DNA of 32,000 nucleotides, taken from assembly GCA_039809905.1 (NCBI GenBank), contig JBDHVY010000001.1, forward strand, positions 600,001-632,000, read 5' to 3'. Below are positions 8,650-25,143 of the stretch, piece after piece. The DNA is from Candidatus Babelota bacterium (GTDB taxonomy: Bacteria; Babelota; Babeliae; Babelales; Vermiphilaceae). The number at the start of each line of letters is the position of its first letter. Positions within the stretch are counted from its first letter, which is position 1. The position numbers and the translations under genes are program-made. The notes below the pieces were generated by a model that was not told the origin of the DNA, made no database searches, and saw only the letters and a program-made list of their open reading frames with translations.

Positions 8650-9714
8650 ATGTTTGTTCGATGTGTGTTGATGGCAGCATTTTTAGTTTCGTCGCATTTA
8701 TCCTCCATGGATTCGGTAATCAAGCCAGAAGAATCTCTTAAGCTCAGAATAATGACGTATAATACCTGTAATTTTTGGGGCATGGCCGATAAAGCAGAAA
8801 CAGCTCATCTGACGTGGGATGCAAGAAAAGATAGGATTATTAGATTAATTTTAGATGAAAAACCAGATATTGTTGGGTTTCAAGAACTGAGAGATGATAA
8901 TGAAAAATCAACACTGAAAGATTTATGGCTTGGTCTAGCTGATCATGGATATAGAATAGAAAGCGTTAAGCATAATCCTTCTCCAGGTTCTTATATTAAT
9001 GTAATAGCATATAACAGTAATAAATTAATGTCAGACAATGTTCATCGTTGGTGGCTATCAGAAACTCCTGATAAGTGTTCTGATTCATGGGGAAATGGAT
9101 GGGGAAATGCTGCATTAATGGTTTCATTGTATCCTATTATTAAGCAAAAAAAAGGAAACTTTGATGTTTCGTTTCCTGATTATACCAGACCTGTTCATGT
9201 TGCTAATGTACATAATGGCTTAAAGCATCAAGAAAAAATGAAAACAAATATTGTTCTGGTGAATGAAATTGATAGGCGTACACAGGGCAGTAAAGGAGTT
9301 GTTATTCTTACAGGAGATTTTAACAGTTTTCCAGAGCCTGAGCGCGGCGGAGCAATAGAATTGGCTATACTGAAAGATGCTGGTTATAGCGAATTATTGA
9401 ATGATTTAAAAACCAAAAATGGAATAGCCATTTCAGGTACCTTTATTGGCTATTCATCGGATAGATTTCAGTGTCCGACTGGTACATTATCTGGTCAATT
9501 AGATCATATTTTTTTGAAAAATTTATCCAATGTTGCATTTGGATCAAAATCATATGTAAATATGAAAAAATATAATGGCAAAGATAAAGAAGATGCAACT
9601 ACCCAAGCAGAACTACTAATGGGACCTGATGGCAAAGAAGTTCGGGACGAATTTCCATCAGATCATGTACCAGGAATTGTCGATTTAGAAATTTTATTTA
9701 ATATTGCCAAGTAA
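8650..9714 (+). CDS. Secreted endonuclease/exonuclease/phosphatase (EEP) family protein
   Basis: The start is chosen at ATG 8650, with AAAGGAG 5-6 nt upstream; the listed ORF begins at 8602. Signal peptide is MFVRCVLMAAFLVSSHLSS|MD. EEP motifs are LRIMTYNTCNF, PDIVGFQELRD, LTGDFNS, LDHIF and the C-terminal PSDHVP. Confidence 0.8.
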   Translation: MFVRCVLMAAFLVSSHLSSMDSVIKPEESLKLRIMTYNTCNFWGMADKAETAHLTWDARKDRIIRLILDEKPDIVGFQELRDDNEKSTLKDLWLGLADHGYRIESVKHNPSPGSYINVIAYNSNKLMSDNVHRWWLSETPDKCSDSWGNGWGNAALMVSLYPIIKQKKGNFDVSFPDYTRPVHVANVHNGLKHQEKMKTNIVLVNEIDRRTQGSKGVVILTGDFNSFPEPERGGAIELAILKDAGYSELLNDLKTKNGIAISGTFIGYSSDRFQCPTGTLSGQLDHIFLKNLSNVAFGSKSYVNMKKYNGKDKEDATTQAELLMGPDGKEVRDEFPSDHVPGIVDLEILFNIAK

Positions 9715-11134: not shown

Positions 11135-11542
11135 TTATCGCATTTTTATGATTTCTGATTCTTTAATATTACCATCCTTTGAGAAAAAGCCTTTTAAACC
11201 TTTTTTTGCAGGTTTTTGAGGACGTAATCTTTTAGTATCCTGATCCCATTCTAAGAACACTGTTTGAGTTTTTGGGGTTACGTTGATCTTATACATACGA
11301 CCTGCTGGATTTAAATTAGCAAATATGGATACATAAAAAGGTCTATTAAATGGTATTGATCCTGAATATTCATCACCAGTATCAATTGTATCTATATAAT
11401 TGGAATAACTACTATCTATTGGATCAGTAAGTAAAGCTGAAATTTCATGAGATCGCGATACGTTTTTTAGTTTAAAATCAATTGCTTGTAAGTTTATAAC
11501 GGTTGCAACGATAGCAAATATGGCAAGCTTCATTGTTTTCAT
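11135..11542 (-). CDS. Small secreted hypothetical protein (135 aa)
   Basis: ORF with signal peptide MKTMKLAIFAIVATVINLQA|IDF. No recognisable domain. No lipobox, so it is not a typical pilotin. Confidence 0.55.
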   Translation of the reverse strand: MKTMKLAIFAIVATVINLQAIDFKLKNVSRSHEISALLTDPIDSSYSNYIDTIDTGDEYSGSIPFNRPFYVSIFANLNPAGRMYKINVTPKTQTVFLEWDQDTKRLRPQKPAKKGLKGFFSKDGNIKESEIIKMR

Positions 11543-11701: not shown

Positions 11702-11727
11702 AAAAAAAACCCCAGTGTTTCTGGGGG
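11702..11727 (-). terminator. Rho-independent terminator ending the secretin operon
   Basis: On the minus strand, ccccag / ctgggg form a stem followed by T8 (plus-strand A-run at 11702-11709). It lies 10 nt after the stop of secretin B. A second hairpin (cccattt/aaatggg, 11679-11699) follows. Confidence 0.8.
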
Positions 11728-11736
11728 TTGGCTTCT

Positions 11737-14202
11737 TTATGTTCTCAAGAATGGATTAGGATCATCTCCAACTATACATTTTAAATCAGGTAATTGTTCG
11801 GTATTTATAGTTTGATTTGCATCATTATAGGAGATAGTAAGACCTGTTTTTCGTGTTAATGCCGTGGTGCTATCAATATCTTGCAGATCAGGATTGATGT
11901 TCTTTTTAAGTTCTTTATCCTTAACGGTGTTTTTGCGCGCTGTAAGACTTTCATCTTGAGATGCAAAATCGTCAAGAGCAGTTGCTATATCAACTTCTGC
12001 TTTAAAGAACCAACGAGTAATTGGGTCTTTAAGTGAATCAAATAAATCTCCTCGTGCATAATCTTTTGCTACGTCAATATAATCTTGCGTATATTCGTTT
12101 ATTCCTTGTCGCAGACGAGGCTCAACTATGGTTGGAGATATGAAAACAGTAAGATTATTTTTTATTATGTCTTTTCTTTTTCTTTTAAAGAACCAACCAA
12201 TTATAGGAATTTTTCCTAAGACAGGAACTTCAGCCATAGAGTCAGTTGTAGTGGTTCTAATTAAACCACCAAGAGCAAATATACCGCCACTTTTTATGTT
12301 TGCATTGGTCTCAAGGGTACGTACGTTTTTAACGTTACCAGGGCCATCTTGCCATTCGTTGATATCAATAAGAATTTGAAGATTAACGGTATTTGCAGAG
12401 CTAATGCGTGGCGTTATTTTCACGACAAGGTTAGCTGCAATAGGTTTATGTTTAATGGTTGTTGCACCACCATAATAGTTACCGGCTATATCTTTTACTC
12501 TATCAGTAAGCCAACGTGTTTGACCTATAGAAACAATTGCTTCTTTATTATTTCGTGCAATAACGTGTGGATGAGAAAGTATTTTGGAATTGGTAAATAG
12601 TTGTTGTAATTCCCAAATACTCCACGTGCTGCCATTATTATCATTTAGTGAAAGCATAGTAGTTCCAAAATCAATGGAAGGATTTAATAATGTTGCAATG
12701 TTATTTGTACCAGGAGAAGGATTTGCAAGTGTTCCATCAGCATTATAGCCATTGCTTAAAAGATCGGATTCAATGGTGGTAGTTGGCACCGGAGGCAATT
12801 CACTCGGAAGTACTTGTTCAAGCATTGCCGATTGAAATTCTATATCATCAGGAAGAGGTACTTTATCAGGCATACGTGTCATGGCACCTAAAAGTCTTAC
12901 ATCGTCTACCGTTAAATCTGCTATGAGTACTTCAATAAGAACTTGTTTTTGGGGAGTATCTAGTTCCTCAATTAATTTTTTTATTTGTTTCCAATCATCA
13001 TTACGAGCAGCAATAACTAAATTGTTACCACCATAAAAAGTAGGGCGTTGTTCTTTGACAGGAGTGTTAGCATTATCTACTTCTTGATTGAGTGGACTAT
13101 CAGTATGAATAATTACTTTATCAAAAAAGCGTTCTGTGCCGCCGCCTTTGCGCTCACCAGCACTTGCTTGACTTGGACCACCTGATTCTCCTCTGTCTTC
13201 TACTATCCTTGTTAATACCGGAGCAAGATCACGTGCATTAAGATATTGCAAATGATATACGTGCAGAATTGATTTACCAGTATCTGGTGCAACATCTATA
13301 TATTTTTTAATAAAATCTTTTAAACGTTCAACTGCTTGAGGACGGCCAAGAATAATTAATTTATTTAAACGTGTTTCAGGAATTATTTTGGTGAATCCAG
13401 AAAAATAAGGAATTTCTTTGGCTTTTTTAGTATCAAGGCGATAAGGATTATTATTTTCTGGTTTAATGAGCTGTTGGTTGATTAATTCTGCAACAATACT
13501 TGCAGAAGTATGATGCAATGATATGATATCTACTTTTTCCTGAAAATCGAGATGATCAAGTTCTATGATAATTTTCATTGCACCACGAATATCATTTGCT
13601 TTTGCAATTAATAAAAGTCCATTGGTAACTGGATCGCCTTTAATGAGAGCATTTTCAGGTAAAATATCTTTTAAAATACCATTTAATTCATTATCTTGCT
13701 GATCAGAAACTTTAATGTTGGCAAGATAGTAAAGATAGCGAATTGGTTGATCAGTATTTGGTAAATCATCAGGATGAACACCGATATATGTTGTCATTGG
13801 TTCTCGTGAAATTTCTTTTCCACTTTTGACGATTCTAATGAGCGAACCTTGCTGAACAACAAAAAATCCTGCAACATCAAGTAATGTTTCAAGAATATTC
13901 CATGCTTGAGAAAGTGTCATTTTATCATCAATATGGAGTGTTACTTTTGTATTAAGAGTTTCTCCTGGAGGAAAGATGACATTAAAATTTTTTAATGCTG
14001 CTAAAGTATTAACGATGTTGCCAAGGTCTTCATTATCATATTTAAACACGATATCTGCGCGTTCTTGTTCATCTGTTTCTGTTGTGATGTCGTCTGTTTC
14101 ATCTATATTTTGACAATAAACAGGTGAAATACAGATGAATATATTCAAAGCAAGCGCAATGAAATATTTTGAGAGCAGATTGATGATTGTATGTATTTTC
14201 AT
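11737..14202 (-). CDS. Secretin B (GspD/PilQ superfamily, N0 + N1-type repeats + secretin domain + 126-aa C-terminal extension)
   Basis: Signal peptide ...ICISPVYC|QN. N0-like segment IVFKYDNEDLGNIVNTLAALKNFNVIF. Repeated N1-type modules are present. Secretin-domain hallmarks are VLIEVLIADLT, HPHVIARNNKEAIVSIG and VPVLGKIPIIGWFFKRKRK. SD AAGGA lies upstream. Confidence 0.9.
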   Translation of the reverse strand: MKIHTIINLLSKYFIALALNIFICISPVYCQNIDETDDITTETDEQERADIVFKYDNEDLGNIVNTLAALKNFNVIFPPGETLNTKVTLHIDDKMTLSQAWNILETLLDVAGFFVVQQGSLIRIVKSGKEISREPMTTYIGVHPDDLPNTDQPIRYLYYLANIKVSDQQDNELNGILKDILPENALIKGDPVTNGLLLIAKANDIRGAMKIIIELDHLDFQEKVDIISLHHTSASIVAELINQQLIKPENNNPYRLDTKKAKEIPYFSGFTKIIPETRLNKLIILGRPQAVERLKDFIKKYIDVAPDTGKSILHVYHLQYLNARDLAPVLTRIVEDRGESGGPSQASAGERKGGGTERFFDKVIIHTDSPLNQEVDNANTPVKEQRPTFYGGNNLVIAARNDDWKQIKKLIEELDTPQKQVLIEVLIADLTVDDVRLLGAMTRMPDKVPLPDDIEFQSAMLEQVLPSELPPVPTTTIESDLLSNGYNADGTLANPSPGTNNIATLLNPSIDFGTTMLSLNDNNGSTWSIWELQQLFTNSKILSHPHVIARNNKEAIVSIGQTRWLTDRVKDIAGNYYGGATTIKHKPIAANLVVKITPRISSANTVNLQILIDINEWQDGPGNVKNVRTLETNANIKSGGIFALGGLIRTTTTDSMAEVPVLGKIPIIGWFFKRKRKDIIKNNLTVFISPTIVEPRLRQGINEYTQDYIDVAKDYARGDLFDSLKDPITRWFFKAEVDIATALDDFASQDESLTARKNTVKDKELKKNINPDLQDIDSTTALTRKTGLTISYNDANQTINTEQLPDLKCIVGDDPNPFLRT

Positions 14203-14207
14203 CTATC

Positions 14208-14777
14208 CTATTCCTTAGCTGGGGTAGTTTCTATTTTTGGTAACAATGTCGAAATAGTTAAGGTAACATCAATTGTCTTAGGTCTATTTTTTGGCGCAAC
14301 AATATCAAGGCGGTTGGTTGCAACACGTGGATTTTGTTCTAACTTTTCCAAAAGTATAGTTAAATCCTGCATAGTCATGCCTTCAAATTTTGTGGTAAGT
14401 TCACTTTTTCGATAATTTTCTTCAAGATCAGTTGTGCTTATTTCTTCGCTTACTTTTTTATCTGTCATGTGCAAGTCTTCTAGCAGTTTTTTAAAATATC
14501 CTGCAATTTTAAAATTGGGATCTTTTGCGAGAATTTCTTCTACAACAATTTGCTGTTGTTTGACTATCGCGTAGCGATCAAAAATTTCCCGGACTTCTTC
14601 GCGATATCCTTCTAATGATTTTATTTTTTTTTGTAATCCACTCATTGAGCTGTAATAATAAATGATTATAAGGATACAAAGTAATAGGCAGGATGATGCA
14701 TACCCTATCATATAAATATAAAAGGTTCTTAGATCGATTTTATTGATAAATATTTTTATTGGTTCTAGGAACTTCAT
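14208..14777 (-). CDS. Bitopic inner-membrane protein, PilO/GspM-like
   Basis: 189 aa with a short cytoplasmic N-terminus, one TM helix (MIGYASSCLLLCILIIIYYY), then a coiled-coil and a small periplasmic domain. Its position after the PilM/N-like gene and the ATGA overlap with it (14774-14777), with GAGGAG as SD, support the call. The assignment rests on architecture and context, not on a motif. Confidence 0.5.
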   Translation of the reverse strand: MKFLEPIKIFINKIDLRTFYIYMIGYASSCLLLCILIIIYYYSSMSGLQKKIKSLEGYREEVREIFDRYAIVKQQQIVVEEILAKDPNFKIAGYFKKLLEDLHMTDKKVSEEISTTDLEENYRKSELTTKFEGMTMQDLTILLEKLEQNPRVATNRLDIVAPKNRPKTIDVTLTISTLLPKIETTPAKE

Positions 14778-16408
14778 GAAGGCTCCTCATTACCAACTAA
14801 GGTTAGTTTCATAGTAAATTGTGGCATTTCCGGTGATTCAATTGGTCGAAGTATCTTTGATTGTTCTAGTTCGCGTTCAAATTCCTTGAGTGCTTCACTA
14901 TCTCGCACTTCAGCTTTTAGTGTTAAAATTCCGTCAGCTATATTGATTTGTTCAACCTTGAGATCAATTTTTTTTCTATCAATCTTTGAGGATAATTCGA
15001 GCAAATATTGCAAAAATGATGCGCGAGATTGATGAGAGAAAGCAAACCATCTTTTTTGTAATTCTTCCATTTCTTGATTTGCATCCTCAATAACATCATC
15101 ATCTAATGTTTTTGGATTTTCTAAAGTATTGAAAGTTGCAGTAAGAGCATCAAGTGCTTGTTTTTCAGAAATATGCGCAACTTCTTTTAATTTGCTTGTT
15201 TGAACATAATAGTGTGTGATCAGAGTGGCAAATATAGTTATGGTCAGAACAATAAGAACAATTAATTGCTTAAGAAGCAATGAATCGCTTTGTGTTATAA
15301 ATTCTTTCTGTGCAAGATTGTAATCAACGGTTATGGCAAGAGGCAATGTGGCGCTTACGCTAATGGCGTTAAAGGGAGTAATAAGATTGCCATTTTTTAT
15401 CGTAGATGGTGGATCTTGTATTGTTTCTTCAGCAGTAAAGAGTTCGCAACTTAATCCTGTTTTTTGTGCAATAAAAGGTACCAAGCCTTTAATAATGGAG
15501 CCACTACCAAGGAAAATAATCTTTGTTATAGGTCGGCGATTTAATAATTGTGCATTGAAAGAATTTAAGGTAAAGCTAACTCCATCCCACCATTCGGAAG
15601 TATTTTTTTGTATTGTTGATGAATGTTCAGCATTTTCAGTTTGCTCAAGCCCAAATCGTAATAAGTAGTCTACTGTTTCTTGAAGACTCTTATTAAGTTC
15701 TTGAGCAATTTGTTTGGTGAGAGCGCTAATACCTTTTGGTAATGTACGTACTGTTTTTAATTGTCCATCAACCATAAACGCAATAGCAGTTGAATGACCG
15801 GTTATATTAATTAAAGCGGTTCCACCTTCTAAGTTTTTATATGCACTAATGGATTTATATAATCCATAGATGGATATCATATCGATAGTAATAACTTCTG
15901 GTCGTATGCCTATTGCTTCAAAAAGTGCTATGTGTTGAATAATATGTTGTTTTTGAACAGCAGTTACTAAAATTTCAGAACTTTTTTCTTCAGGAATTTG
16001 CCTGGTTATAATAAAATCTATTGCTGCATCACGCAAAGAAAAAGGTAAAAGAGGTTCTATTTCAAACCCTATTACCATGCTTATTTTATCTCGAGAAGTA
16101 AAAGGAAGTTTTAGTTCTTTAAATACAACAACAGAACTTGCCAGTACGGTATGAATTTCATCATACGAACCTATTTTGGCAAAAATGGCTTTTAAAGCAG
16201 GTGATGTTGGATCAATATCTTCTTCTGATACCTCTTCTGATATCTTTTCTTCAACAATAAGTTCAATAGTGCTGGTTGTTCCGGTAATGCGTGTTTTTGT
16301 AGCAATAATTTTTGTTTTATTAATCTCAACAGCAACAACTATTTTGGTAAAAAGATAATAGGATTTTATTTTTTCTGGCAACAATACGTCTTTAATGAAT
16401 GTGCTCAT
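14774..16408 (-). CDS. PilM-like actin-fold domain fused via one TM helix to a PilN/GspL-type periplasmic domain (GspL-like architecture)
   Basis: The N-terminal ~370 aa resembles PilM/FtsA-type ATPase folds (VVVFKELKLPF, EIEPLLPF, ITIDMISIYGL, ALINITGHSTAIAFMVDG, IIFLGSGSIIKGL). Next comes a TM helix LLLKQLIVLIVLTITIFATLITHYY, then a ~150-aa coiled-coil/periplasmic part. There is a strong SD (AAGGAGG) and an ATGA overlap with the upstream secretin (16405-16408). Confidence 0.75.
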   Translation of the reverse strand: MSTFIKDVLLPEKIKSYYLFTKIVVAVEINKTKIIATKTRITGTTSTIELIVEEKISEEVSEEDIDPTSPALKAIFAKIGSYDEIHTVLASSVVVFKELKLPFTSRDKISMVIGFEIEPLLPFSLRDAAIDFIITRQIPEEKSSEILVTAVQKQHIIQHIALFEAIGIRPEVITIDMISIYGLYKSISAYKNLEGGTALINITGHSTAIAFMVDGQLKTVRTLPKGISALTKQIAQELNKSLQETVDYLLRFGLEQTENAEHSSTIQKNTSEWWDGVSFTLNSFNAQLLNRRPITKIIFLGSGSIIKGLVPFIAQKTGLSCELFTAEETIQDPPSTIKNGNLITPFNAISVSATLPLAITVDYNLAQKEFITQSDSLLLKQLIVLIVLTITIFATLITHYYVQTSKLKEVAHISEKQALDALTATFNTLENPKTLDDDVIEDANQEMEELQKRWFAFSHQSRASFLQYLLELSSKIDRKKIDLKVEQINIADGILTLKAEVRDSEALKEFERELEQSKILRPIESPEMPQFTMKLTLVGNEEPS

Positions 16409-18993
16409 ACTTGTACCTCCTTATCAGGCAAAAATTGAGCAAGAGATAATTGTGTCCGTTTCTTATTATGCATAGTTTCTATAAGATTCTGATGAGCTGT
16501 GCTCACTATTTTTTCTGGTACATCAACAGCAGGTTCATTTGGCGCAATGCTTTCTTCTTGTTGAATTATCACAGCTTGTTCTTTTTTTGCTTGCCGTTCA
16601 AAAATAAGGCCTTCAACTGATTTTTTAGCTCTGTCAGCTTTATCCTGGAAGAAGAGACGATGAATAGGATCACGATTGACGGCTGTAGTATCCATATAAT
16701 TAATCGTAGCTTGATAATCCTCAATGTGTTCACGCGTGAATGATTTCATATCTTCTCCCGCATTTGATTCAATAATGCGTGTAGAAATAAGTACCAAAAG
16801 ACTTTGTTTAATATTTATTTTACGTTTGTTTTTAAAAAACCAACCAATAATAGGAATGTCTCCTAATACAGGAACTTTTGTTTCTATATTTTGTATATTG
16901 TTTCTAATTAAACCACCAAGAGCAAGAACTTCTTTGTTCGCCACAATGGCATGAGTAACAATTTCTCTGGTGTTTTGTGTTGCACTGGTCGGATCGTTTG
17001 GATCAGCAAATTCATTAATCAGAATGCGAATGGTTAGGCCAATCATGCCATCAGAATTAATTTGTGGTGTGATAGTAACTTCAAGCAATGCGTTATCTGC
17101 ATCAAAAGCATTTACGGTGTTTGATGTGCTTGCGCTGCTTGATGCTCCGGTAATAACTTCTTCTGATACGATACGGCGTTGTTCACCAATAGAAACGGTT
17201 GCTTTGGAATTATTGGTTGCAAGTATAAACGGATTTGCTACCACTTCTGTATCAGTAATTGATTGAAGTGCTTGAAAAGCTCCCCATACGCCAAATGCAT
17301 CTCTGCCAAGAGTTAAGAACGATGTTCCTGGTACTGATCCTTGCACAAGATTAATGAGATTACCAAGAAGCCGTTGCGCTCCTGTTGTTGCATCAGGATT
17401 AGTTACGATAGTTGAAGTACCATACATTCCTGATGTTTGGAATTTAATATTATTGCCAAGAATACCATTCGGACCAGGTTCTTTAGTTCGTATTTGTGCA
17501 CCAAGACTTTTTGTATCAGTAAGGTCTACTGATGCAATAAGAACTTCAATAGCTGCTTGTGGTTGTTTTGCATCAAGCTGTCTAATAATTTTTTCTGCTT
17601 TTAGATAGTCATCATAATGGCCTTTAATAATGATGCGATTAGTTTCTGGTTCGGCAATAAATACCATTGGCCTCATGTATTGATCAGTACCACGTACACC
17701 ACCAAATTCTCGTTCTTTTGTTCCCGCACCAAATGACGTAACATCTGTCATAAGTTGAGCAATGGTTTTAGCATCAGCATATTTCAGTTGATATGTGTAA
17801 AGTGGTGAATAGGCTTGATCAAGTTCAATATCAACATATTTTACGATAAAATCTTCAATTTTTTTAATTGCGTTTTTTGGTCCGAGTAAGATGAGCGTAT
17901 TTGTTCGCGGATCAGAAATAATGCGTGTATTTTCTGGAAAGAAAAGAGAAGTCGGTTGTTTTTTAGTGAAAAAACGTGATGATGTATCTTCTTTAGGCAG
18001 CAATTCTTGATACAAATTTTTTACGGTATCTGCATCAGCATTGCGGAGTTTAAGCACAGACATAGATTCTGGAATACTGACTTTATCAAGTTCTTTAACG
18101 ATAGCCATCAACATTTTGATATTGTAGGCTTTATCAGTCAGTATAAATCCTTTGTGTTCTCTGAGTGCAATAAGACCTTGTGAACTACTGCTTCGCAGAG
18201 GCCCGACGATTTCCATAATAGTATCAACTGATGCATTTTCTAAGAAATAAACATAGCGAATTAATTCATCGTTATCAGGCAATAATTTATAATCGACACC
18301 AATAAACGTTGGCAATGGAGCTTTTCGTGCTGATTCTATTGTGGTAATTCTAAAAATTTTCGGATCTGCTTGAGGGGTGATTGCAAAGCCAGCTATATCA
18401 ATAAATGTGACAAATAAATTCCACGTTTCTTTTTTAGAAAGAGGATTATTTGTTTTGAATGATATTTTATTATTTTTTATTGATTTTTTACCCTGAGGTA
18501 GTGGAGATATTGCATCATCACTTATGAAGGTAATTTCAAAAATATCTTCAATTTGTTTCACAAAGTTTTGAAGATCAGCATTTTCAAAATTAAGTTCTAT
18601 ACTAACTTCTTCATCTTCTTCGTCTTGTATAGCAAGAGGCATTTCAACAGGTTGTGTTGCTTTATCAATGGCAGCAGGTTTTTTAGGATCTACAAAAGGA
18701 TCAGTGTATTGTTGTATTGGTCGCTGATCTAATCCATTGTTCATTTGAGATGTCTCAGCAGATTTCGGTGCCTTATCGTTGGTTGGTTTTTTTGTGGTGA
18801 AAGAAGTGCTTGCCCTGCCTGCGGTTGGAGCTGTAGCTATTGGGCTGGTATAAGCCTCAATATTCATGTGAGTATTAACGCTTTTATTTGCTGCTTTTTT
18901 TTTGCGGTAGCGTTTTCGACTTCCTGTTTCTGTTATGCTCATAACAGTGGCAAGAATAAAAACAAGAGAGAGATGAACTTTATATTTATTCAT
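16405..18993 (-). CDS. gspD: Secretin A (GspD-type: signal peptide, ~105-aa low-complexity linker, N0-N3, secretin domain, 119-aa C-terminal extension)
   Basis: N0-like segment ELNFENADLQNFVKQIEDIFEITFI. Several N1-type modules are present. Secretin-domain motifs are AIEVLIASVDLT, ANPFILATNNSKATVSIG and VPVLGDIPIIGWFFKNKRK. It lies directly downstream of the GspC-like gene. Confidence 0.9.
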   Translation of the reverse strand: MNKYKVHLSLVFILATVMSITETGSRKRYRKKKAANKSVNTHMNIEAYTSPIATAPTAGRASTSFTTKKPTNDKAPKSAETSQMNNGLDQRPIQQYTDPFVDPKKPAAIDKATQPVEMPLAIQDEEDEEVSIELNFENADLQNFVKQIEDIFEITFISDDAISPLPQGKKSIKNNKISFKTNNPLSKKETWNLFVTFIDIAGFAITPQADPKIFRITTIESARKAPLPTFIGVDYKLLPDNDELIRYVYFLENASVDTIMEIVGPLRSSSSQGLIALREHKGFILTDKAYNIKMLMAIVKELDKVSIPESMSVLKLRNADADTVKNLYQELLPKEDTSSRFFTKKQPTSLFFPENTRIISDPRTNTLILLGPKNAIKKIEDFIVKYVDIELDQAYSPLYTYQLKYADAKTIAQLMTDVTSFGAGTKEREFGGVRGTDQYMRPMVFIAEPETNRIIIKGHYDDYLKAEKIIRQLDAKQPQAAIEVLIASVDLTDTKSLGAQIRTKEPGPNGILGNNIKFQTSGMYGTSTIVTNPDATTGAQRLLGNLINLVQGSVPGTSFLTLGRDAFGVWGAFQALQSITDTEVVANPFILATNNSKATVSIGEQRRIVSEEVITGASSSASTSNTVNAFDADNALLEVTITPQINSDGMIGLTIRILINEFADPNDPTSATQNTREIVTHAIVANKEVLALGGLIRNNIQNIETKVPVLGDIPIIGWFFKNKRKINIKQSLLVLISTRIIESNAGEDMKSFTREHIEDYQATINYMDTTAVNRDPIHRLFFQDKADRAKKSVEGLIFERQAKKEQAVIIQQEESIAPNEPAVDVPEKIVSTAHQNLIETMHNKKRTQLSLAQFLPDKEVQV

Positions 18994-19008
18994 ATTTTTT
19001 TACTCAAT

Positions 19009-20115
19009 TCAACTGCTACTGTGGGTTGCCCGAGCACCTTTTTGAAACATTAATTGGTGATCTGCTTTTTTCATTTTATCAACGGTAGGAGCAAAAGCAT
19101 ATTGTTGTTGTTTTATAGTCTCATTTTTTTTGTGTAAAAGAAAAGCTGTTTCCTGTTTTTCAGTATTATTGAGAGACTCTTCTTCCTTTGTAGTAAAGTC
19201 TTCTAAGGTATAAACGAGGGTAATATCTCTATTTTTACGCATTAATTTTATGGTTATTGTGTTGCCAATTTTGAGTGAAGTAATGTTTTTATAGATTGCA
19301 AGCCGCTCTTCTGTTGTTTGTGCCGGAATACCATTTATAGAAAGTATTATATCACCATTTTGCAATCCTATTAAGCCGCCAAATGGAGATTTATTCATAA
19401 GGCCTATACGCAATCCTACACTTTTTCCTTGTTGATATGCTGTTGTTGCATTCAAAAGCTCAATGCACTCAGTCAAACTTTTGACTTGTTCTATAAATGA
19501 TTCAGGATTAATGAGATAAGTACTATTTCCTGTTTTTTTAACAACAGTATCCCATTCATGTGCAATATTATAGACTGGATCAGTTTTTGCATCTTGTTCT
19601 CGTAAATAAAGCACTTCTTGTTGTCCATTTAAACGCAAGAAGATAACTTTATTTTTAAATATTCGTATAAGTTGTGAATCTTGAATAAGATCACCAACTT
19701 TATAGGTACCTTCTTGTGTTGTTTTATTATCTTGAATCATTGCCCTATTTTTTGAATCATTAGAGCTTACAACAATAATACCTTTCAGTGTTATTTGAAG
19801 TGGATCAAGAAATTCTGGTTCGGCAATAGCAGGTATTATTATTTTTTGTTGAGCTGGAGGAGCAGGAAAAGGAATAACTGTTTCAGATTGTTTTACCTGT
19901 GGAATTTCTTTTACATAAGTGCCAAAAAGATCATCTTCATAAATTTTTTTGATATTGATAGCAACTTTTTGTTCTTTGCGTGGAGCAACTTCTTCTGCCT
20001 CAAGATCTTCTGATTTTGGTCGAGAAATTTTAACAGATGACACATAAATAAATGCAAAGATGACAAGGACTAAAGAAAGTAGTCCAAGATTTATAATCCA
20101 AAATGGTTGTTTCAT
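19009..20115 (-). CDS. gspC: GspC-like protein (N-terminal TM anchor, HR-like secretin-interaction segment, C-terminal PDZ domain)
   Basis: TM helix FWIINLGLLSLVLVIFAFIYV. HR-like segment is LQITLKGIIVVSSNDSKNRAMIQDN...YKVGDLIQDSQLIRIFKNKVIFLRLNGQQEVLYL. PDZ-like segment is GLRIGLMNKSPFGGLIGLQNGDIILSINGIP...TIKLMRKNRDITLVY. SD AAGGAA lies upstream. Confidence 0.75.
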   Translation of the reverse strand: MKQPFWIINLGLLSLVLVIFAFIYVSSVKISRPKSEDLEAEEVAPRKEQKVAINIKKIYEDDLFGTYVKEIPQVKQSETVIPFPAPPAQQKIIIPAIAEPEFLDPLQITLKGIIVVSSNDSKNRAMIQDNKTTQEGTYKVGDLIQDSQLIRIFKNKVIFLRLNGQQEVLYLREQDAKTDPVYNIAHEWDTVVKKTGNSTYLINPESFIEQVKSLTECIELLNATTAYQQGKSVGLRIGLMNKSPFGGLIGLQNGDIILSINGIPAQTTEERLAIYKNITSLKIGNTITIKLMRKNRDITLVYTLEDFTTKEEESLNNTEKQETAFLLHKKNETIKQQQYAFAPTVDKMKKADHQLMFQKGARATHSSS

Positions 20116-20149: not shown

Positions 20150-20179
20150 ACAATAACGCTCTTAACTTACCCTTGTCAA
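20150..20179 (-). promoter_or_regulatory. Candidate sigma70-type promoter for the secretin operon
   Basis: On the minus strand, TTGACA (plus 20174-20179), an 18-nt spacer, then TATTGT (plus 20150-20155), about 35 nt upstream of the gspC-like ATG. Sequence match only; read-through from the MoxR gene is also possible. Confidence 0.3.
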
Positions 20180-20223: not shown

Positions 20224-21216
20224 TTACGGTGTAGGGATTGTGCTCATTATTTTCTTTATGATTGCTTCTGCTGAAACATTATCTGCTTCTGCTTCATATG
20301 TTAAGTGTAAACGATGTTGCAATGCAGGCAAACATATTGCTTTAACATCATCAGGAATCACATAATGCCGTTTTGCCAAAAAAGCATGTGTTTTTGCTGC
20401 ATGATAGAGCGCCAAAGTTGCTCTTGGAGAAACGCCATATTTAATATACGGTGTAAGCTCGTTTAATTTATAATCAGCAGGCTTTCGTGTTGCAAAAATA
20501 ATTGAAACGATATAATTAATTATTTTTTCATCAACGTAAATGCATTGTGCAAGCTTTTGTGATTCTAGTATATCGCTTTGTGTTAAAACTTGGTTGATTG
20601 TATTGGTATTGAGCGAGCGATGCAAAATTTCACGTTCTTCAAAAATAGTAGGATAATCAACGTGTATTTTGAACAAAAAGCGATCAAGTTGTGCTTCTGG
20701 CAAACGATATGTTCCTTCTTGTTCAACAGGATTTTGTGTTGCAAAAACTAAAAATGGAGCGTCAAGTTTATAGGTATGTGATCCAATAGTTACTTGTTGC
20801 TCTTGCATAGCTTCCAAAAGAGCAGCCTGGACTTTTGCCGGAGCACGATTAATTTCATCAGCAAGAATGAGGTTGGCAAAAATAGGTCCTTTTTTTGTTT
20901 CAAAATCTTGAGTTTTTGGATTAAAAATTAAGGTGCCAATCAAATCAGATGGTAGTAAGTCTGGTGTAAATTGTATGCGGTTAAAGGTAAGACCAAGAGC
21001 GGCTGCCACGGCTTTGATCATCGTAGTTTTTGCCACACCCGGAACGCCTTCAAGCAAAATATGGCCTTTACATAAAATTGCATTAACAATTAATTCAATA
21101 ATATGATTTTGACCAACAATTACTTTGCTTATTTCTGTAGGTAAATCGTTAAATCGATTGCTTTCTAGTTTTATTTGATCAATATCAGTCTGTGTCGGCA
21201 TTATATTATTCATCAT
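20224..21216 (-). CDS. MoxR-family AAA+ ATPase
   Basis: Walker [11 protein letters not shown], Walker [11 protein letters not shown], the MoxR-type [23 protein letters not shown] motif, and a C-terminal lid. I place the start at the MMNNIMPTQ methionines. The 21270 start would leave only 9 bp before the divergent dcd ORF. Confidence 0.88.
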
Positions 21217-21300
21217 ATGAATATCTTTTTTTAAAAAATAATCCTGGTACTTTATAGTATACGTTAACATTATCTTGCAATGAGTTCAATAAGGAGCATT

Positions 21301-22787: not shown

Positions 22788-23237
22788 ATGCGTAATAATT
22801 TGTATGTGGTACTAGGGCTTTGGATAATTTTTATTGGTAATGAATCTTTAATTGCGATGCATGAATCGATAAAAGTAAAAATAGAAAATTTGAGAATAGC
22901 TCATGTAGCAGAAATACGACAGCATGAAAAAGGGTGTAGTGACTGTCTTGTTGATCAAGCCTGTGGTAGATCAGAAATTGCGCAAAAATTTACAAAACAA
23001 GTTGGTGAGTTGGTATTAAATGCCGGAGATCTAGTGACTGATCAAGAAAAATTAAATCATGCCTACGGAAAGTTGCTTTATCCTCAACGAAAAGAAGTTA
23101 TTAAAAAAATGATTAGTGAAGGTCAACATCCAAACAATATAGTATATCAGCTAAATGAAGAAACTCCTTTGAAGAAAGCAGTTAAATTTGAAGATGAAGA
23201 ATTTATTCGGTTTTTGCGTGAACATGGTGCTGATTAG
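22788..23237 (+). CDS. Small signal-peptide protein with a single C-terminal ankyrin-like repeat (149 aa)
   Basis: N-terminus is MRNNLYVVLGLWIIFIGNESLIA|MH. The C-terminal ...ETPLKKAVKFEDEEFIRFLREHGAD fits the ANK consensus (TPLh.A...g..e.v.fLl.hGAd). Confidence 0.55.
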   Translation: MRNNLYVVLGLWIIFIGNESLIAMHESIKVKIENLRIAHVAEIRQHEKGCSDCLVDQACGRSEIAQKFTKQVGELVLNAGDLVTDQEKLNHAYGKLLYPQRKEVIKKMISEGQHPNNIVYQLNEETPLKKAVKFEDEEFIRFLREHGAD

Positions 23238-23283: not shown

Positions 23284-25143
23284 TTAGCAGAGGTATTTAG
23301 TAATAATATCTTTGAATGATTGGTTTTCAACAAAAAAGTCTCGTATATATTCATATAATGGCTGAGATATATGATTAAGCACAGAAGTATTTTCTTTTTT
23401 TGCTCTGAATAATTGTATTAATGCATAGAAATCAACAAAATTCATGTTTTTTGACAAATCAACAAGAGGGATATTTTCTGTATCCGTAATCAGTTCTGTT
23501 GTTATTGATTTGTATTTATCAAACGTTGTTATTAAAGATCTTCCGTTGTTTGTCATTCCTACCCCCCTAATAGATGGTTCTGCAAAATCAATGGTGCCGA
23601 CGCAGTTGCCAGTTGTGTGATTATATAATTTAACGCAACTAGAGGCACAGCCATTGTTTGTTGCTATGCAGGCAATCGGCGAATGTGGAATTGAGCATGC
23701 AGCTGCATAGATATTTTCGTCTTCTTTTCCCTCTTGTGTTGCCGTTTTGCTTAAAAAAGCCCCTGAAAGAAGATCAAAAAAGAATGTTGCGTATTGTGTT
23801 GAAATAGCAACAATATTTTGTTGAGGGTAGTTAAAGGTAATAGTTGCTTCAGCAGAACGTTTTGTAGGAATTTTAATTGATTGTAATTCTTTAATATTAT
23901 TTAGATTGCTCGTGTCCCATATCATAAATATGTGACCTTCAAATTTCCGATGTGCAAGGCAACCAATAAGTCTTGTATCATTATAATTAAAGGTTAGTTC
24001 TAATGGCCATGATTGAGAAAGAGCAGATTCTCCACTAGGCAACTTTAAAGTATTGACTACTTTTTTCTTTTGAAGAGAAAATAATTCTACTTCTCCTGGT
24101 TTTCCTGATGCAAGAATTGTTGATGCATTATTAAAACAAGGTGCTGTATTAAAGTTACAAGCTGGAACAATGATTGTATCTGATAAATAGTCATTATCAG
24201 AATCATCCAAACAGGTGAGCATAAATTTGCTGTTTTGCTGTCCTATCATAGCATAAGAGCTAGTAACAAGCCATTTGCCATCAGGGCTCAATGAAGCCCT
24301 ATTAATGAGTGAGCCATGGGTAATAGCTGGAATTTCCAAAGTTCCCTGAATTATACCAAATTCATTATCTTTTTTTTCAACAATAAAGTGATTTGTTTTT
24401 GGAGAAAGAAGTATTAAAGGTAGTTCTTCTTGTTCACTATTTTTTACTAAAACGAGACTCGGTTGTCCATTAAAATTATGTATATTAAGATCTTTAACCT
24501 TAGGCATATCGATAGGGCTGCCTCTTTGAGAAATTTTTCTCAAACAATCGTCTTGATTGTAAGAATACGCTGGTGCTTGTATGATTGATTGATTGGTTAT
24601 ATTATCGATAATCATACAAGATTTAAGATGCACAAAAAGTTGATTGAATTGTTTAGGGCAATATTTTTTAATAATACGGTTTAAGACAACAGGGTGATCG
24701 AGCCATTGAACAGCAAGCTGCGCTGTTAAGCGTAAAGCATGTAATTTTTTTGTACCATCACTCAATTGTGCACCTGCAGCGATAGTGAGTACGCGTTGTT
24801 TATCAGGGGTAAGTTTTTTAAAATATTTTGAAAAAGATTTTGATTGTTGATGACCGATATTTTTATTGAGCGATGTATCAAAAAGAGTTATTTCTTCTGT
24901 TGTAATGTTGGGAATGATAATAGGATTTTTTTTATTCTGAGAATAATAGCATTCACATAATGTGTTTGATTCTTTTTTTACTTTCCATTTTTCAATTGAA
25001 TAGGTTGATCCGTCATCTAGTTGAAGATTTATTTTGTTTTTTGTTGTTGGCGCATCCATGGAAATAAGAGAAGCTGAGTATATTAATAGAAAAATGATAA
25101 CGTAATAATCAATTGACCAAAACTGAGCAAAAGTATAGCGCAT
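23284..25143 (-). CDS. Signal-peptide protein: possible Skp1/BTB-POZ-like N-terminal segment plus probable beta-propeller (619 aa)
   Basis: SD AGGATGAAG lies upstream, 30 nt downstream of mlaF on the same strand. N-terminus is ...YYVIIFLLIYSASLIS|MD. Blade-like starts are SLSPDGKWLVTSS, LTFNYNDTRLIGC, ITFNYPQQNIVAIST and GMTNNGRSLITT. The N-terminal segment KINLQLDDGSTYSIEKW...NPIIIPNITTEEITLF is discussed under findings. Confidence 0.6.
   Translation of the reverse strand: MRYTFAQFWSIDYYVIIFLLIYSASLISMDAPTTKNKINLQLDDGSTYSIEKWKVKKESNTLCECYYSQNKKNPIIIPNITTEEITLFDTSLNKNIGHQQSKSFSKYFKKLTPDKQRVLTIAAGAQLSDGTKKLHALRLTAQLAVQWLDHPVVLNRIIKKYCPKQFNQLFVHLKSCMIIDNITNQSIIQAPAYSYNQDDCLRKISQRGSPIDMPKVKDLNIHNFNGQPSLVLVKNSEQEELPLILLSPKTNHFIVEKKDNEFGIIQGTLEIPAITHGSLINRASLSPDGKWLVTSSYAMIGQQNSKFMLTCLDDSDNDYLSDTIIVPACNFNTAPCFNNASTILASGKPGEVELFSLQKKKVVNTLKLPSGESALSQSWPLELTFNYNDTRLIGCLAHRKFEGHIFMIWDTSNLNNIKELQSIKIPTKRSAEATITFNYPQQNIVAISTQYATFFFDLLSGAFLSKTATQEGKEDENIYAAACSIPHSPIACIATNNGCASSCVKLYNHTTGNCVGTIDFAEPSIRGVGMTNNGRSLITTFDKYKSITTELITDTENIPLVDLSKNMNFVDFYALIQLFRAKKENTSVLNHISQPLYEYIRDFFVENQSFKDIITKYLC

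What the first reader, a model, noticed from the sequence alone, without database searches (positions are those of the whole stretch)
11737..20115. Compact five-gene operon with two divergent GspD-type secretins and no ATPase, platform or pilin genes
The minus-strand genes from 20115 to 11737 are tightly packed. Gaps are 15 and 5 nt, there are two ATGA stop/start overlaps (16405-16408 and 14774-14777), and the unit ends at a strong terminator (11702-11727). The order is: GspC-like (TM + HR-like + PDZ), secretin A (862 aa), PilM-like actin-fold domain fused through one TM helix to a PilN/GspL-type periplasmic domain (544 aa), PilO/GspM-like bitopic protein (189 aa), secretin B (821 aa). Both secretins have an N0 module, several N1-type modules and the VPVLG.IPIIGWFFK.KRK motif. 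Outside the conserved motifs they are clearly diverged (not quantified), so the paralogy is old rather than a recent duplication. Canonical T2SS operons have one gspD and continue with gspE-F-G and onward. Canonical T4P clusters are pilMNOPQ with one pilQ. This operon reads like gspC-gspD joined to a pilMNO-plus-secretin unit. No gspE/pilB, gspF/pilC, prepilin or prepilin-peptidase ORF occurs anywhere in the 32 kb. Possible interpretations are a heteromeric or stacked secretin, or two outer-membrane channels sharing one inner-membrane alignment complex. A T2SS-outer / T4P-outer hybrid serving machinery encoded elsewhere would also fit. Many neighbouring genes encode Sec-signal-bearing eukaryote-like proteins, which are plausible substrates.
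Basis: partly seen in the sequence, partly recalled or inferred. Interest (0 to 1): 0.72.

Follow-up and report, generated by a model that had tools for sequence, protein, structure and literature searches.

The report
Dependentiae T2SS scaffold operon, two secretins
This operon encodes the envelope-spanning scaffold of a type II secretion system (gspC-gspD-gspL-gspM) plus a second, anciently duplicated outer-membrane secretin; the layout is kept across the parasitic phylum Dependentiae, the rest of the machine is encoded elsewhere, and what the second channel does is unknown.

Summary
Five tightly packed minus-strand genes (20115-11737) carry two ATGA overlaps, gaps of 15 and 5 nt, a promoter-like site and a terminator. 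They encode GspC, secretin A, a PilM-fold/TM/periplasmic protein, a 189-aa bitopic protein and secretin B.

The T2SS/T4P-hybrid reading is not supported:
- The 189-aa protein is GspM (hhalign 95.5% to Desulfobacterales GspM).
- The 544-aa protein has the GspL architecture. Its closest relatives found outside the phylum are the gspL genes of canonical Desulfobacterales T2SS operons (gspG-K, L, M, C, D, E).
- Both secretins are GspD-type, not PilQ-type.

So the operon reads gspC-gspD1-gspL-gspM-gspD2.

The organism is a Dependentiae (TM6/Babeliales) bacterium. The same order occurs in 42 species-level genomes, and both secretins are present in 33 of 33 loci long enough to show them. The paralogs are 30% identical and form reciprocal clades, so the duplication is old.

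The missing ATPase, platform and pilin genes are not an absence. In Babela massiliensis they are dispersed around the genome (PulE x2, PulF x2, PulG x3, PulO).

Two gspD copies in all TM6 genomes were already reported in 2016. What is new is the conserved, translationally coupled operon. The role of the second secretin is unresolved.

The parts
20150..20179 (-). Promoter-like site (TTGACA, 18 nt, TATTGT) in the 108-nt gap between moxR and gspC
   Evidence: This is a consensus match only: the region holds no more such matches than shuffled sequence does. It fits the finding that the moxR-gspC gap is never 20 nt or shorter in the 36 relatives measured.
19009..20115 (-). gspC: N-terminal TM anchor, HR domain (about residues 101-175), PDZ domain (about 226-305)
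   Evidence: Pfam T2SSC 1.7e-8 and PDZ_2 6.7e-6. NCBIfam GspC_delta 1.5e-23 over the full length, below the curated cutoff. The TM segment is residues 1-33. The HR region is the best-conserved part of the protein, column identity 0.61.
16405..18993 (-). gspD1 (secretin A, 862 aa): signal peptide, a variable linker of about 100 aa, N0-N1-N2-N3, secretin domain, C-terminal extension
   Evidence: Pfam N0, Secretin_N x2 and Secretin 5e-34. TIGR02517 GspD 272 bits against PilQ 132 bits. The best PDB sequence hits are GspD chains 5wq7 and 5zdh. All folded domains are conserved across orthologs.
14774..16408 (-). gspL-type gene (544 aa): full PilM-like actin-fold cytoplasmic domain, one TM helix, coiled coil, ferredoxin-like periplasmic domain
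   Evidence: PilM_2 1.8e-16. TIGR01709 GspL 5.7e-4 on residues 355-518. AF2 model with pLDDT 78. Foldseek top hits are PilM 5eou and 2ych (TM 0.75-0.77), with the EpsL cytoplasmic domain 1yf5 at TM 0.64. The closest relatives found outside the phylum are the gspL genes of Desulfobacterales T2SS operons.
14208..14777 (-). gspM (189 aa): bitopic, TM at residues 18-49, periplasmic domain
   Evidence: Ten of 28 orthologs hit Pfam T2SSM, best E 1e-4. Profile-profile comparison with Desulfobacterales GspM gives 95.5% probability and E 1.5e-8 over 161 columns. That outgroup GspM itself scores T2SSM 4e-11.
11737..14202 (-). gspD2 (secretin B, 821 aa): signal peptide, N0-N1-N2-N3 (with an insert in N3), secretin domain, C-terminal helical extension and disordered tail
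   Evidence: Pfam N0, Secretin_N x2 and Secretin 1e-30. TIGR02517 GspD 273 bits against PilQ 121 bits. AF2 domain layout. Foldseek top hit is PulD 6hcg at 5e-26, and the best PilQ chain ranks 27th. It is 30% identical to secretin A.
11710..11726 (-). Intrinsic-terminator-like hairpin CCCCAG-AAACA-CTGGGG followed by T8, 10 nt after the gspD2 stop codon
20224..21270 (-). moxR (AAA_3 ATPase): a conserved co-directional upstream neighbour. Whether it belongs to the system is uncertain.
   Evidence: Pfam AAA_3 3e-65. It lies upstream of gspC in 36 of 40 Dependentiae loci, with a median gap of 114 nt that is never 20 nt or shorter. dcd and eno are also recurrent neighbours, so this may be general synteny.

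Best explanation
The window comes from a Dependentiae (TM6, Babeliales) chromosome. The operon is gspC-gspD1-gspL-gspM-gspD2: the inner-membrane alignment proteins of a type II secretion system (GspC, GspL, GspM), the outer-membrane secretin, and a second GspD paralog. The second copy arose by duplication at or before the base of the sampled Dependentiae and has been kept intact beside the first ever since.

The motor ATPase (GspE/PilB), platform (GspF/PilC), (pseudo)pilins and prepilin peptidase are not missing. In this phylum they are scattered around the chromosome.

Inferred mechanism:
- Sec exports the many signal-peptide-bearing effectors to the periplasm.
- GspL and GspM couple a cytoplasmic GspE-type ATPase and a GspF platform to a pseudopilus.
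- The GspC HR domain docks onto a secretin N0 ring.
- Folded proteins leave through the GspD channel.

Most likely both secretins form working channels, presumably homo-oligomeric. Each would dock on the same single set of GspC/L/M proteins. They may serve the two GspE/GspF pairs that Dependentiae genomes carry: one secretion pseudopilus and one pilus-like filament.

Shown here: gene identities, operon structure, phylum-wide conservation, paralogy, and dispersal of the other components in relatives. Inferred: co-transcription, docking partners, and the division of labour between the two channels.
For: Organism: homologs are named Candidatus Babeliales or Dependentiae.

Gene identities.

T2SS affinity: the only relatives of the 544-aa protein found outside the phylum sit in Desulfobacterales operons that read gspG-H-I-J-K, gspL (PilM_2 + T2SSL + PilN + GspL_C), gspM, an unassigned ORF, gspC, gspD, gspE. 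GspC best matches the GspC_delta model.

Conservation:
- The gspC-gspD1-gspL-gspM-gspD2 order is seen in 42 species-representative Dependentiae genomes, preceded by moxR in 36 of the 40 loci scored, down to 27% GspL identity.
- Both secretins are present in 33 of 33 loci with room for them.
- The 4-nt secretin A/gspL overlap is kept in 36 of 40 loci.

Paralogy:
- A-B identity is 30%.
- Mean identities are A-A 46%, B-B 42%, A-B 28%, and 22-23% to the outgroup. A and B form reciprocal clades, sister to Desulfobacterales GspD in an NJ tree.
- A C-terminal DPIxRxFF motif occurs in 34/41 A and 31/35 B sequences but in 0/7 outgroup sequences.
- Every folded domain of both copies is conserved.

Rest of the machine is elsewhere:
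- The COG table of Pagnier et al. 2015 gives, for Babela / TM6SC1: PulE 2/2, PulF 2/2, PulG 3/0, PulO 1/1, PilE 1/1, PilM 1/1, PulD 3/2.
- In Babela these genes lie near 58, 140, 301 and 518 kb.
- Babela-type GspF stands alone among housekeeping genes.
- No GspE Walker-A motif or prepilin motif occurs within 10 kb of the cluster in any Dependentiae locus.

Against: - I could not search the window's own genome beyond 32 kb. The presence of gspE/F/G/O there is extrapolated from Babela massiliensis and TM6SC1.
- Nothing here shows which secretin GspC binds, whether both form channels, or whether they are homo-oligomeric.
- All T2SS family scores are below the curated NCBIfam cutoffs (GspD 272-273 against 351; GspC_delta 84 against 150). 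These are divergent members.
- The cytoplasmic domain of the 544-aa protein is structurally closer to PilM than to gammaproteobacterial GspL, so a T4P-like working mode of the platform is not excluded.
- The tree uses a single outgroup lineage and a distance method.
- The locus scan found only genomes that match two peptide patterns, so 'phylum-wide' means every locus recovered, not every Dependentiae genome.
Confidence: 0.72

Rival explanations
1. T2SS/T4P split, as proposed by the first reader and by Yeoh et al. 2016. gspC-gspD1 is the T2SS outer module. The PilM-fold protein, the 189-aa protein and secretin B form a pilMNO-pilQ-like module in which a recruited GspD paralog replaces PilQ as the exit pore of a type IV pilus.
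For: - The cytoplasmic domain of the 544-aa protein is a complete PilM-like actin fold (Foldseek TM 0.75-0.77 to PilM, 0.64 to EpsL; PilM_2 1.8e-16).
- The gene order places secretin B directly after that pair.
- Babela has T4P-type pilins (PilE, PilV x2) and two PulE/PulF pairs.
- pilQ is absent from TM6 genomes and the authors suggested this substitution. Deeg et al. suggested a 'derived pulD channel' for pili.
Against: - The 189-aa protein matches GspM, not PilO.
- The same PilM-fold fusion is the gspL gene of canonical T2SS operons in Desulfobacterales.
- No PilP is present, and GspC is the only HR-domain protein.
- Secretin B keeps the four-N-domain GspD layout, has no AMIN hit, and scores 273 bits as GspD against 121 as PilQ.
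- No pili were seen on Babela by EM, according to Yeoh et al..
- The secretin A/gspL overlap is the most conserved junction (36 of 40 loci). That ties gspL to secretin A at least as tightly as to secretin B.
Confidence: 0.2
2. A single composite channel. The two secretins co-assemble into one structure, either a heteromeric ring or two coaxially stacked rings, serving one T2SS.
For: - Both genes are always together in one translationally coupled operon.
- They evolve at similar rates.
- Their distance matrices are the best-correlated pair in the cluster (partial r 0.86 after controlling for MoxR).
- There is only one GspC, one GspL and one GspM for two secretins.
- No paper describing a comparable co-operonic pair was found.
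Against: - To my knowledge all solved secretins are homo-oligomers; the PDB hits here are single-species 12-15-mers.
- A high mirror-tree correlation is expected for paralogs under the same constraints, so it is not evidence of contact.
- 30% identity implies diverged protomer interfaces.
- A third tandem copy in L042 and three PulD genes in Babela fit independent channels better than a fixed two-part complex.
- No multimer prediction could be run.
Confidence: 0.1
3. One secretin is redundant or decaying: a relic duplicate with no separate function.
For: Fragmented secretin ORFs occur in three loci, L013, L016 and L027.
Against: - Those three loci are long-read MAGs in which neighbouring genes (GspL, MoxR, GspC) are fragmented too. 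This points to assembly frameshifts.
- Both copies are full length in 33 of 33 informative loci and conserved in every domain, across lineages whose GspL is only 27-40% identical.
Confidence: 0.03

Closest known systems
T2SS of Desulfobacterota ('delta-type'; NCBIfam GspC_delta NF041515; loci L047-L053)
   Same: - GspC with HR + PDZ domains.
- GspD with N0-N3.
- GspL with a PilM_2-like cytoplasmic domain plus TM and periplasmic domains.
- GspM.
These are the closest relatives of the 544-aa protein detected outside the phylum.
   Different: - The Desulfobacterales systems have one secretin of about 680 aa and one contiguous operon, gspG-K, L, M, x, C, D, E.
- Dependentiae have the order C-D-L-M-D, two secretins of about 830-890 aa with a shared C-terminal extension, and the other genes dispersed.
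Canonical gammaproteobacterial T2SS (Gsp/Pul/Eps/Xcp)
   Same: The same four component families. The best solved-structure matches for both secretins are GspD/PulD/EpsD chains.
   Different: - Canonical operons run gspC-D-E-F-G...O with a single gspD (my own knowledge).
- Their GspL has a reduced actin-like domain, whereas here the domain is PilM-sized.
- No pilotin gene is seen here.
- Scores here fall below the equivalog cutoffs.
Type IVa pilus alignment complex PilMNOP-PilQ
   Same: It is homologous at superfamily level (PilM+PilN ~ GspL, PilO ~ GspM, PilP HR ~ GspC HR, PilQ ~ GspD). The cytoplasmic domain here is structurally closest to PilM.
   Different: - PilM and PilN are separate proteins in T4aP and fused here.
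- The 189-aa protein matches GspM, not PilO.
- GspC with a PDZ domain stands in place of the lipoprotein PilP.
- Both secretins are GspD-like and have no AMIN-domain hit.
Extra or orphan secretins in other bacteria (for example P. aeruginosa XqhA backing up XcpQ; separate Xps/Xcs or Xcp/Hxc systems); from my own knowledge, not tested here
   Same: More than one GspD-family secretin in a single genome, with possible alternative use by one machine.
   Different: Those paralogs lie at separate loci or in complete second systems. Here both sit in one translationally coupled operon flanking gspL-gspM, and the arrangement is fixed across a phylum.
Published Dependentiae/TM6 genome descriptions (Yeoh 2016 PMC4776705; Pagnier 2015 PMC4378268; Deeg 2019 PMC6561590)
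   Same: They already report two gspD copies in all TM6 genomes, the absence of pilQ, T2SS as the only secretion system in Babela, and T4P assembly genes.
   Different: None of the passages I read describes the operon architecture, the GspL/GspM assignments, the age of the duplication or the translational coupling.

Membership tests
Type II secretion system (T2SS) | GspD secretin with N0-N1-N2-N3 domains plus a secretin domain | tested here: met
   Both secretins hit Pfam N0, Secretin_N x2 and Secretin. TIGR02517 aligns end to end at 272-273 bits, below the 351-bit cutoff. The AF2 layout and the Foldseek top hits to PulD/GspD agree.
Type II secretion system (T2SS) | GspC with a TM anchor, HR domain and PDZ domain | tested here: met
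   T2SSC 1.7e-8, PDZ_2 6.7e-6, and GspC_delta 1.5e-23 over the full length (below cutoff). TM segment at residues 1-33.
Type II secretion system (T2SS) | GspL: actin-like cytoplasmic domain, one TM helix, ferredoxin-like periplasmic domain | tested here: met
   The architecture is seen in the AF2 model. There is a weak TIGR01709 GspL hit on the TM and periplasmic part. Homologs occupy the gspL position of Desulfobacterales T2SS operons. Caveat: the cytoplasmic domain is closer to PilM than to EpsL.
Type II secretion system (T2SS) | GspM: small bitopic partner of GspL | tested here: met
   Ten of 28 orthologs hit Pfam T2SSM. hhalign gives 95.5% probability and E 1.5e-8 to Desulfobacterales GspM. 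The window protein alone has no hit, and a family profile finds nothing in PDB sequences.
Type II secretion system (T2SS) | GspE ATPase, GspF platform, pseudopilins GspG-K and prepilin peptidase GspO in the same genome | not testable with these tools
   These genes are absent from the 32-kb window and from the 10-kb flanks of the cluster in 42 relatives. They are present but dispersed in Babela massiliensis and TM6SC1 according to the COG tables of PMC4378268 and the Babela GspF loci. The rest of the window's genome could not be read.
Type II secretion system (T2SS) | A single secretin per system, in a contiguous gsp operon | tested here: not met
   There are two (occasionally three) GspD paralogs in the operon, and the other gsp genes lie elsewhere. 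This is a typical feature of the family rather than a strict requirement.
Type IVa pilus PilMNOPQ | PilQ-type secretin (AMIN domain(s), N0 plus one N1-type domain) | tested here: not met
   TIGR02515 PilQ scores 121-132 bits against 272-273 for GspD. There is no AMIN hit. Four N-domains are predicted for secretin B. PilQ chains rank well below GspD chains.
Type IVa pilus PilMNOPQ | Separate PilM, PilN and PilO proteins plus the lipoprotein PilP | tested here: not met
   The PilM-fold domain is fused to the TM and periplasmic part. The 189-aa protein is GspM-like and PilO is not among the Pfam families listed for its orthologs. No PilP is present and GspC takes its place.
Type IVa pilus PilMNOPQ | PilM-type actin-fold ATP-binding cytoplasmic protein | tested here: met
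   PilM_2 1.8e-16. Foldseek gives 5eou/2ych at E 1e-18 to 1e-23 and TM 0.75-0.77. Nucleotide binding was not assessed.

The most novel reading that the evidence does not exclude
The two co-operonic GspD paralogs do not simply run two independent machines. Either they build one composite outer-membrane conduit (a heteromeric or coaxially stacked secretin), or they are two channels that compete for or alternate on a single GspC/GspL/GspM platform. In the second case, one inner-membrane alignment complex would switch between exits, for example effector secretion versus a filament, or different stages of infection. Either case would be an architecture not reported in any secretin structure or paper retrieved here.
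Probability: 0.2. Interest if true: 0.8.

Novelty: new variant of a known kind. Interest (0 to 1): 0.45.

Why it matters
Dependentiae are widespread obligate parasites of protists. Their genomes are filled with signal-peptide-bearing, eukaryote-like effectors, and the T2SS is the only dedicated secretion system reported for them. This operon is therefore probably the main gateway for host manipulation.

A secretin duplication kept for the whole history of a phylum with reduced genomes, always in the same translationally coupled operon and with only one set of alignment proteins, implies a non-redundant job for the second channel. Working out that job would show how one inner-membrane platform can serve two outer-membrane pores, or whether secretins can form mixed assemblies.

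It also shows that a PilM-sized GspL is a normal T2SS component outside the Gammaproteobacteria. That matters for annotation: these genes are currently labelled 'pilus assembly protein PilM'.

Tried and rejected
- Exact-sequence look-up of the 544-aa protein found nothing. The source contig was later recognised through secretin B (P0211), but only 10-kb flanks can be read, so the genome-wide search for gspE/F/G was not possible.
- A family profile of the 189-aa protein against PDB sequences gave only noise, E > 0.5. Homology was established through Pfam scans of the orthologs and hhalign.
- Mirror-tree co-evolution, meant to decide which secretin partners GspC, did not discriminate: GspC-A 0.75, GspC-B 0.73. 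The A-B maximum of 0.86 is uninformative because paralogs share constraints.
- Using Babela PulF to reach GspF in the window's lineage failed. The family diverges fast, and beyond about 12 Babeliaceae sequences the hits run into Patescibacteria; L057 is a CPR-like pilB-pilC-pilM operon with no secretin.
- Literature searches for two-secretin operons or heteromeric secretins found nothing relevant. The type IV filament survey of Denise et al. 2019 does not mention Dependentiae. McLean 2013 is not held, and the supplement of Yeoh 2016 is not held.
- The secretin B monomer model has modest confidence (pLDDT 63) and low TM-scores. I used it only for domain order.
- A decaying-paralog reading was considered because of the fragmented ORFs in L013, L016 and L027. 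I rejected it because neighbouring genes in those long-read MAGs are fragmented too.
- The search of protein representatives, the metagenome scan and the viral-contig scans were not used. Without organism names they could not answer the remaining questions.

Full report
**1. Observation**

The ORF list reproduces the five minus-strand genes at exactly the stated coordinates. The two ATGA stop/start overlaps (16408-16405 and 14777-14774) and the terminator hairpin CCCCAG-AAACA-CTGGGG followed by T8 (11726-11710) were read directly. The terminator was also found by the scan, which additionally gives a TTGACA-18-TATTGT promoter-like site at 20179-20150 in the gap upstream of the first gene.

- GspC-like protein: T2SSC plus PDZ.
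- Both secretins: N0 + Secretin_N x2 + Secretin.
- 544-aa protein: PilM_2.
- TM segments lie where predicted, and both secretins carry VPVLG.IPIIGWFFK.KRK.

The divergence left unquantified is 30% identity over 736 aa, E 1e-82.

Pfam scans of every other ORF of at least 100 aa found no GspE/PilB, GspF/PilC, pilin or prepilin-peptidase gene in the 32 kb. A six-frame scan for the GspE Walker-A box and the prepilin motif also found nothing. The neighbours are housekeeping genes (aspS, eno, tpiA, secG, mlaEF, dcd) and secreted-looking proteins. A MoxR AAA+ ATPase gene lies directly upstream.

**2. Organism and conservation**

Homologs of the 544-aa protein and of secretin B are named Candidatus Babeliales or Dependentiae. 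Window GC is about 34%.

A scan of one genome per GTDB species returned 42 Dependentiae loci. A blastp map shows the gspC-gspD1-gspL-gspM-gspD2 order in these loci, as far as each contig extends, and moxR precedes gspC in 36 of the 40 loci scored. This holds down to 27% identity of the 544-aa protein.
- Both secretins are present in 33 of 33 loci with room for them.
- The 4-nt overlap between secretin A and the next gene is kept in 36 of 40 loci.
- The moxR-gspC gap (median 114 nt) is never 20 nt or shorter.
- Three long-read MAGs show fragmented ORFs in several genes of the cluster at once. This most likely reflects assembly frameshifts.
- One locus (L042) has a third, tandem copy of secretin B.

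So neither secretin is a pseudogene, and no gspE-M or pilB-C genes lie just outside the window.

**3. What the genes are**

The third refutation condition also fails, but the answer changes the interpretation.

The 189-aa protein has no hit by itself. Ten of 28 orthologs hit Pfam T2SSM, two hit T2SSM_b, and PilO is not among the 25 most-matched families listed. A profile of the family aligns with the GspM proteins of Desulfobacterales at 95.5% probability and E 1.5e-8 over 161 columns. Those GspM proteins themselves score T2SSM at 4e-11.

The 544-aa protein is predicted (pLDDT 78) to be a complete actin-fold domain (17-340), a TM helix, a coiled coil and a ferredoxin-like domain. The cytoplasmic part is closest to PilM (TM 0.75-0.77), and the EpsL cytoplasmic domain aligns at 0.64. 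The TM and periplasmic part weakly matches GspL.

The only relatives found outside the phylum lie in Desulfobacterales operons that read gspG, three N-methyl pseudopilins, gspK, a 490-aa PilM_2/T2SSL/PilN/GspL_C protein, gspM, an unassigned ORF, gspC, one gspD and gspE. The 'PilM-PilN fusion' is thus the GspL of this kind of T2SS. GspC also best matches the GspC_delta model.

Both secretins score as GspD (272 and 273 bits) well above PilQ (132 and 121 bits). Their best solved relatives are GspD, PulD and EpsD. The secretin B model shows N0-N1-N2-N3, the barrel and C-terminal helices.

The operon is therefore gspC-gspD1-gspL-gspM-gspD2. Apart from the PilM-like fold of GspL, which the Desulfobacterales T2SS shares, no part of it is specifically T4P-like.

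**4. The two secretins**

Across 84 sequences, mean identities are A-A 46%, B-B 42%, A-B 28%, A-outgroup 23% and B-outgroup 22%. In an NJ tree, A (40 sequences) and B (36, including the L042 extra copy) are reciprocal clades that together are sister to Desulfobacterales GspD. One long-branch A sequence falls at the base.

Both paralogs share a C-terminal extension carrying a DPIxRxFF motif: 34/41 A, 31/35 B, 0/7 outgroup. All folded domains of both are conserved, with N0 at 0.50 in A and 0.38 in B.

This points to a duplication at or before the base of the sampled Dependentiae, with both copies under purifying selection since. The limits are a single outgroup lineage and a distance method.

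**5. Where the rest of the machine is**

No GspE or prepilin motif occurs within 10 kb of the cluster in any Dependentiae locus. The supplementary COG table of Pagnier et al. 2015 lists, for Babela massiliensis / TM6SC1:

| COG | Babela | TM6SC1 |
|---|---|---|
| PulD | 3 | 2 |
| PulE | 2 | 2 |
| PulF | 2 | 2 |
| PulG | 3 | 0 |
| PulJ | 1 | 0 |
| PilV | 2 | 0 |
| PilE | 1 | 1 |
| PulO | 1 | 1 |
| PilM | 1 | 1 |

. In the Babela gene table these genes lie far apart: PilV near 58 kb, a PilB N-terminal fragment near 140 kb, PilE and PulO near 301 kb, and PulF near 518 kb.

Babela PulF is in the protein collection as a 'type II secretion system F family protein'. In two related contigs it stands alone among housekeeping genes.

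The lack of ATPase, platform and pilin genes in the operon is therefore a matter of dispersed gene organisation. I could not verify this for the window's own genome.

**6. Literature**

- Yeoh et al. 2016 state that pilQ is absent, that two gspD copies occur in all TM6 genomes, and that one copy may substitute for pilQ.
- Pagnier et al. [quoted passage not shown]
- Deeg et al. 2019 mention T4P assembly proteins possibly using 'a derived pulD channel', and report that 44% of CDS carry signal peptides.
- None of the passages read describes the operon.
- Searches for two-secretin operons or heteromeric secretins found nothing, and the type IV filament survey of Denise et al. does not cover this phylum.

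**7. Mechanism**

Best supported: the operon supplies the envelope scaffold of the Dependentiae T2SS. GspL and GspM link to a cytoplasmic GspE and to GspF. The GspC HR domain docks onto a secretin N0 ring. Sec-exported effectors then leave through GspD.

There is one C/L/M set for two secretins and, in Babela and TM6SC1, two E/F pairs. The most economical model is therefore two homo-oligomeric channels that dock on the same kind of platform, possibly one for secretion and one for a pilus-like filament.

Rivals are a true T4P role for secretin B with a PilMNO-like platform, a composite heteromeric or stacked channel, and redundancy. The mirror-tree test could not assign GspC to either secretin. 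No multimer modelling was possible.

**8. Verdict**

The system is a divergent, conserved variant of a known machine rather than a new kind, and its most striking feature (two gspD) was already noted in print. What remains open is why a reduced-genome phylum keeps two translationally coupled secretins around a single gspL-gspM pair. That question is specific and testable.

Noticed in passing
window 20224-21270 (-): A MoxR-type AAA+ ATPase gene (AAA_3 3e-65) lies directly upstream of gspC on the same strand. It holds this position in 36 of 40 Dependentiae loci, always separated by a real gap (median 114 nt). No VWA or DUF58 partner gene is visible next to it. It could be a conserved functional neighbour, for example an assembly chaperone, or just local synteny: dcd and eno are also recurrent neighbours.
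   Followed up: partly
L042:14358-16628 (+), after L042:12000-14348: One Dependentiae genome carries a third secretin gene in tandem after gspD2. In the NJ tree it groups inside the secretin B clade, so it is a recent lineage-specific duplicate. The Babela COG table also lists three PulD genes.
   Followed up: partly
window 11737-14202 and 16405-18993 (C-terminal about 120 aa of each secretin): Both paralogs extend about 120-160 residues beyond the secretin domain and share a DP[ILVM]x[RK]x[FWY]F motif (34/41 A, 31/35 B). The motif is absent from all seven Desulfobacterales GspD sequences, which are about 680 aa. In the secretin B model the region is helical, so it may be an S-domain-like element. 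No pilotin gene is evident.
   Followed up: partly
window 18613-18921 (secretin A residues about 25-127): Secretin A has a Lys/Pro/Thr/Ala-rich linker of about 100 aa between its signal peptide and N0. It is poorly conserved (column identity 0.12). Secretin A orthologs vary in length from 812 to 1171 aa.
   Followed up: no
window 4268-5482 (+), 23284-25143 (-), 22788-23237 (+), 8602-9714 (+), and others: Fourteen of the 23 other ORFs scored have a signal-peptide-like hydrophobic N-terminus by a crude hydropathy test; two of these are the membrane proteins MlaE and SecG. The rest include two WD40-type proteins, an ankyrin-like protein and an endonuclease/exonuclease/phosphatase-family protein. 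These are plausible exported effectors.
   Followed up: partly
L013, L016, L027: In three long-read (MFD) MAGs the secretin, gspL, gspC or moxR genes are split into several ORFs. Because several adjacent genes are affected at once, this looks like homopolymer frameshift error rather than pseudogenisation. This was not verified.
   Followed up: no
L053:11832-12689 (+) and equivalents in L048-L052: The Desulfobacterales T2SS operons contain a conserved 285-aa ORF between gspM and gspC with no Pfam hit. It may be a GspN-like or other accessory component. Dependentiae have no counterpart at this position.
   Followed up: no
L057:8141-17295: A contig reached through weak GspF similarity carries pilB-pilC, five unannotated small genes, pilM and three more small genes, with no secretin. 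It sits next to cell-wall synthesis genes and looks like a Patescibacteria-type T4P locus rather than a Dependentiae one.
   Followed up: no
window 11135-11542 (-): A 135-aa protein with a signal-peptide-like N-terminus is encoded just downstream of the terminator. It has no family hit and no detectable ortholog at this position in any related locus, so it is probably not part of the system.
   Followed up: partly
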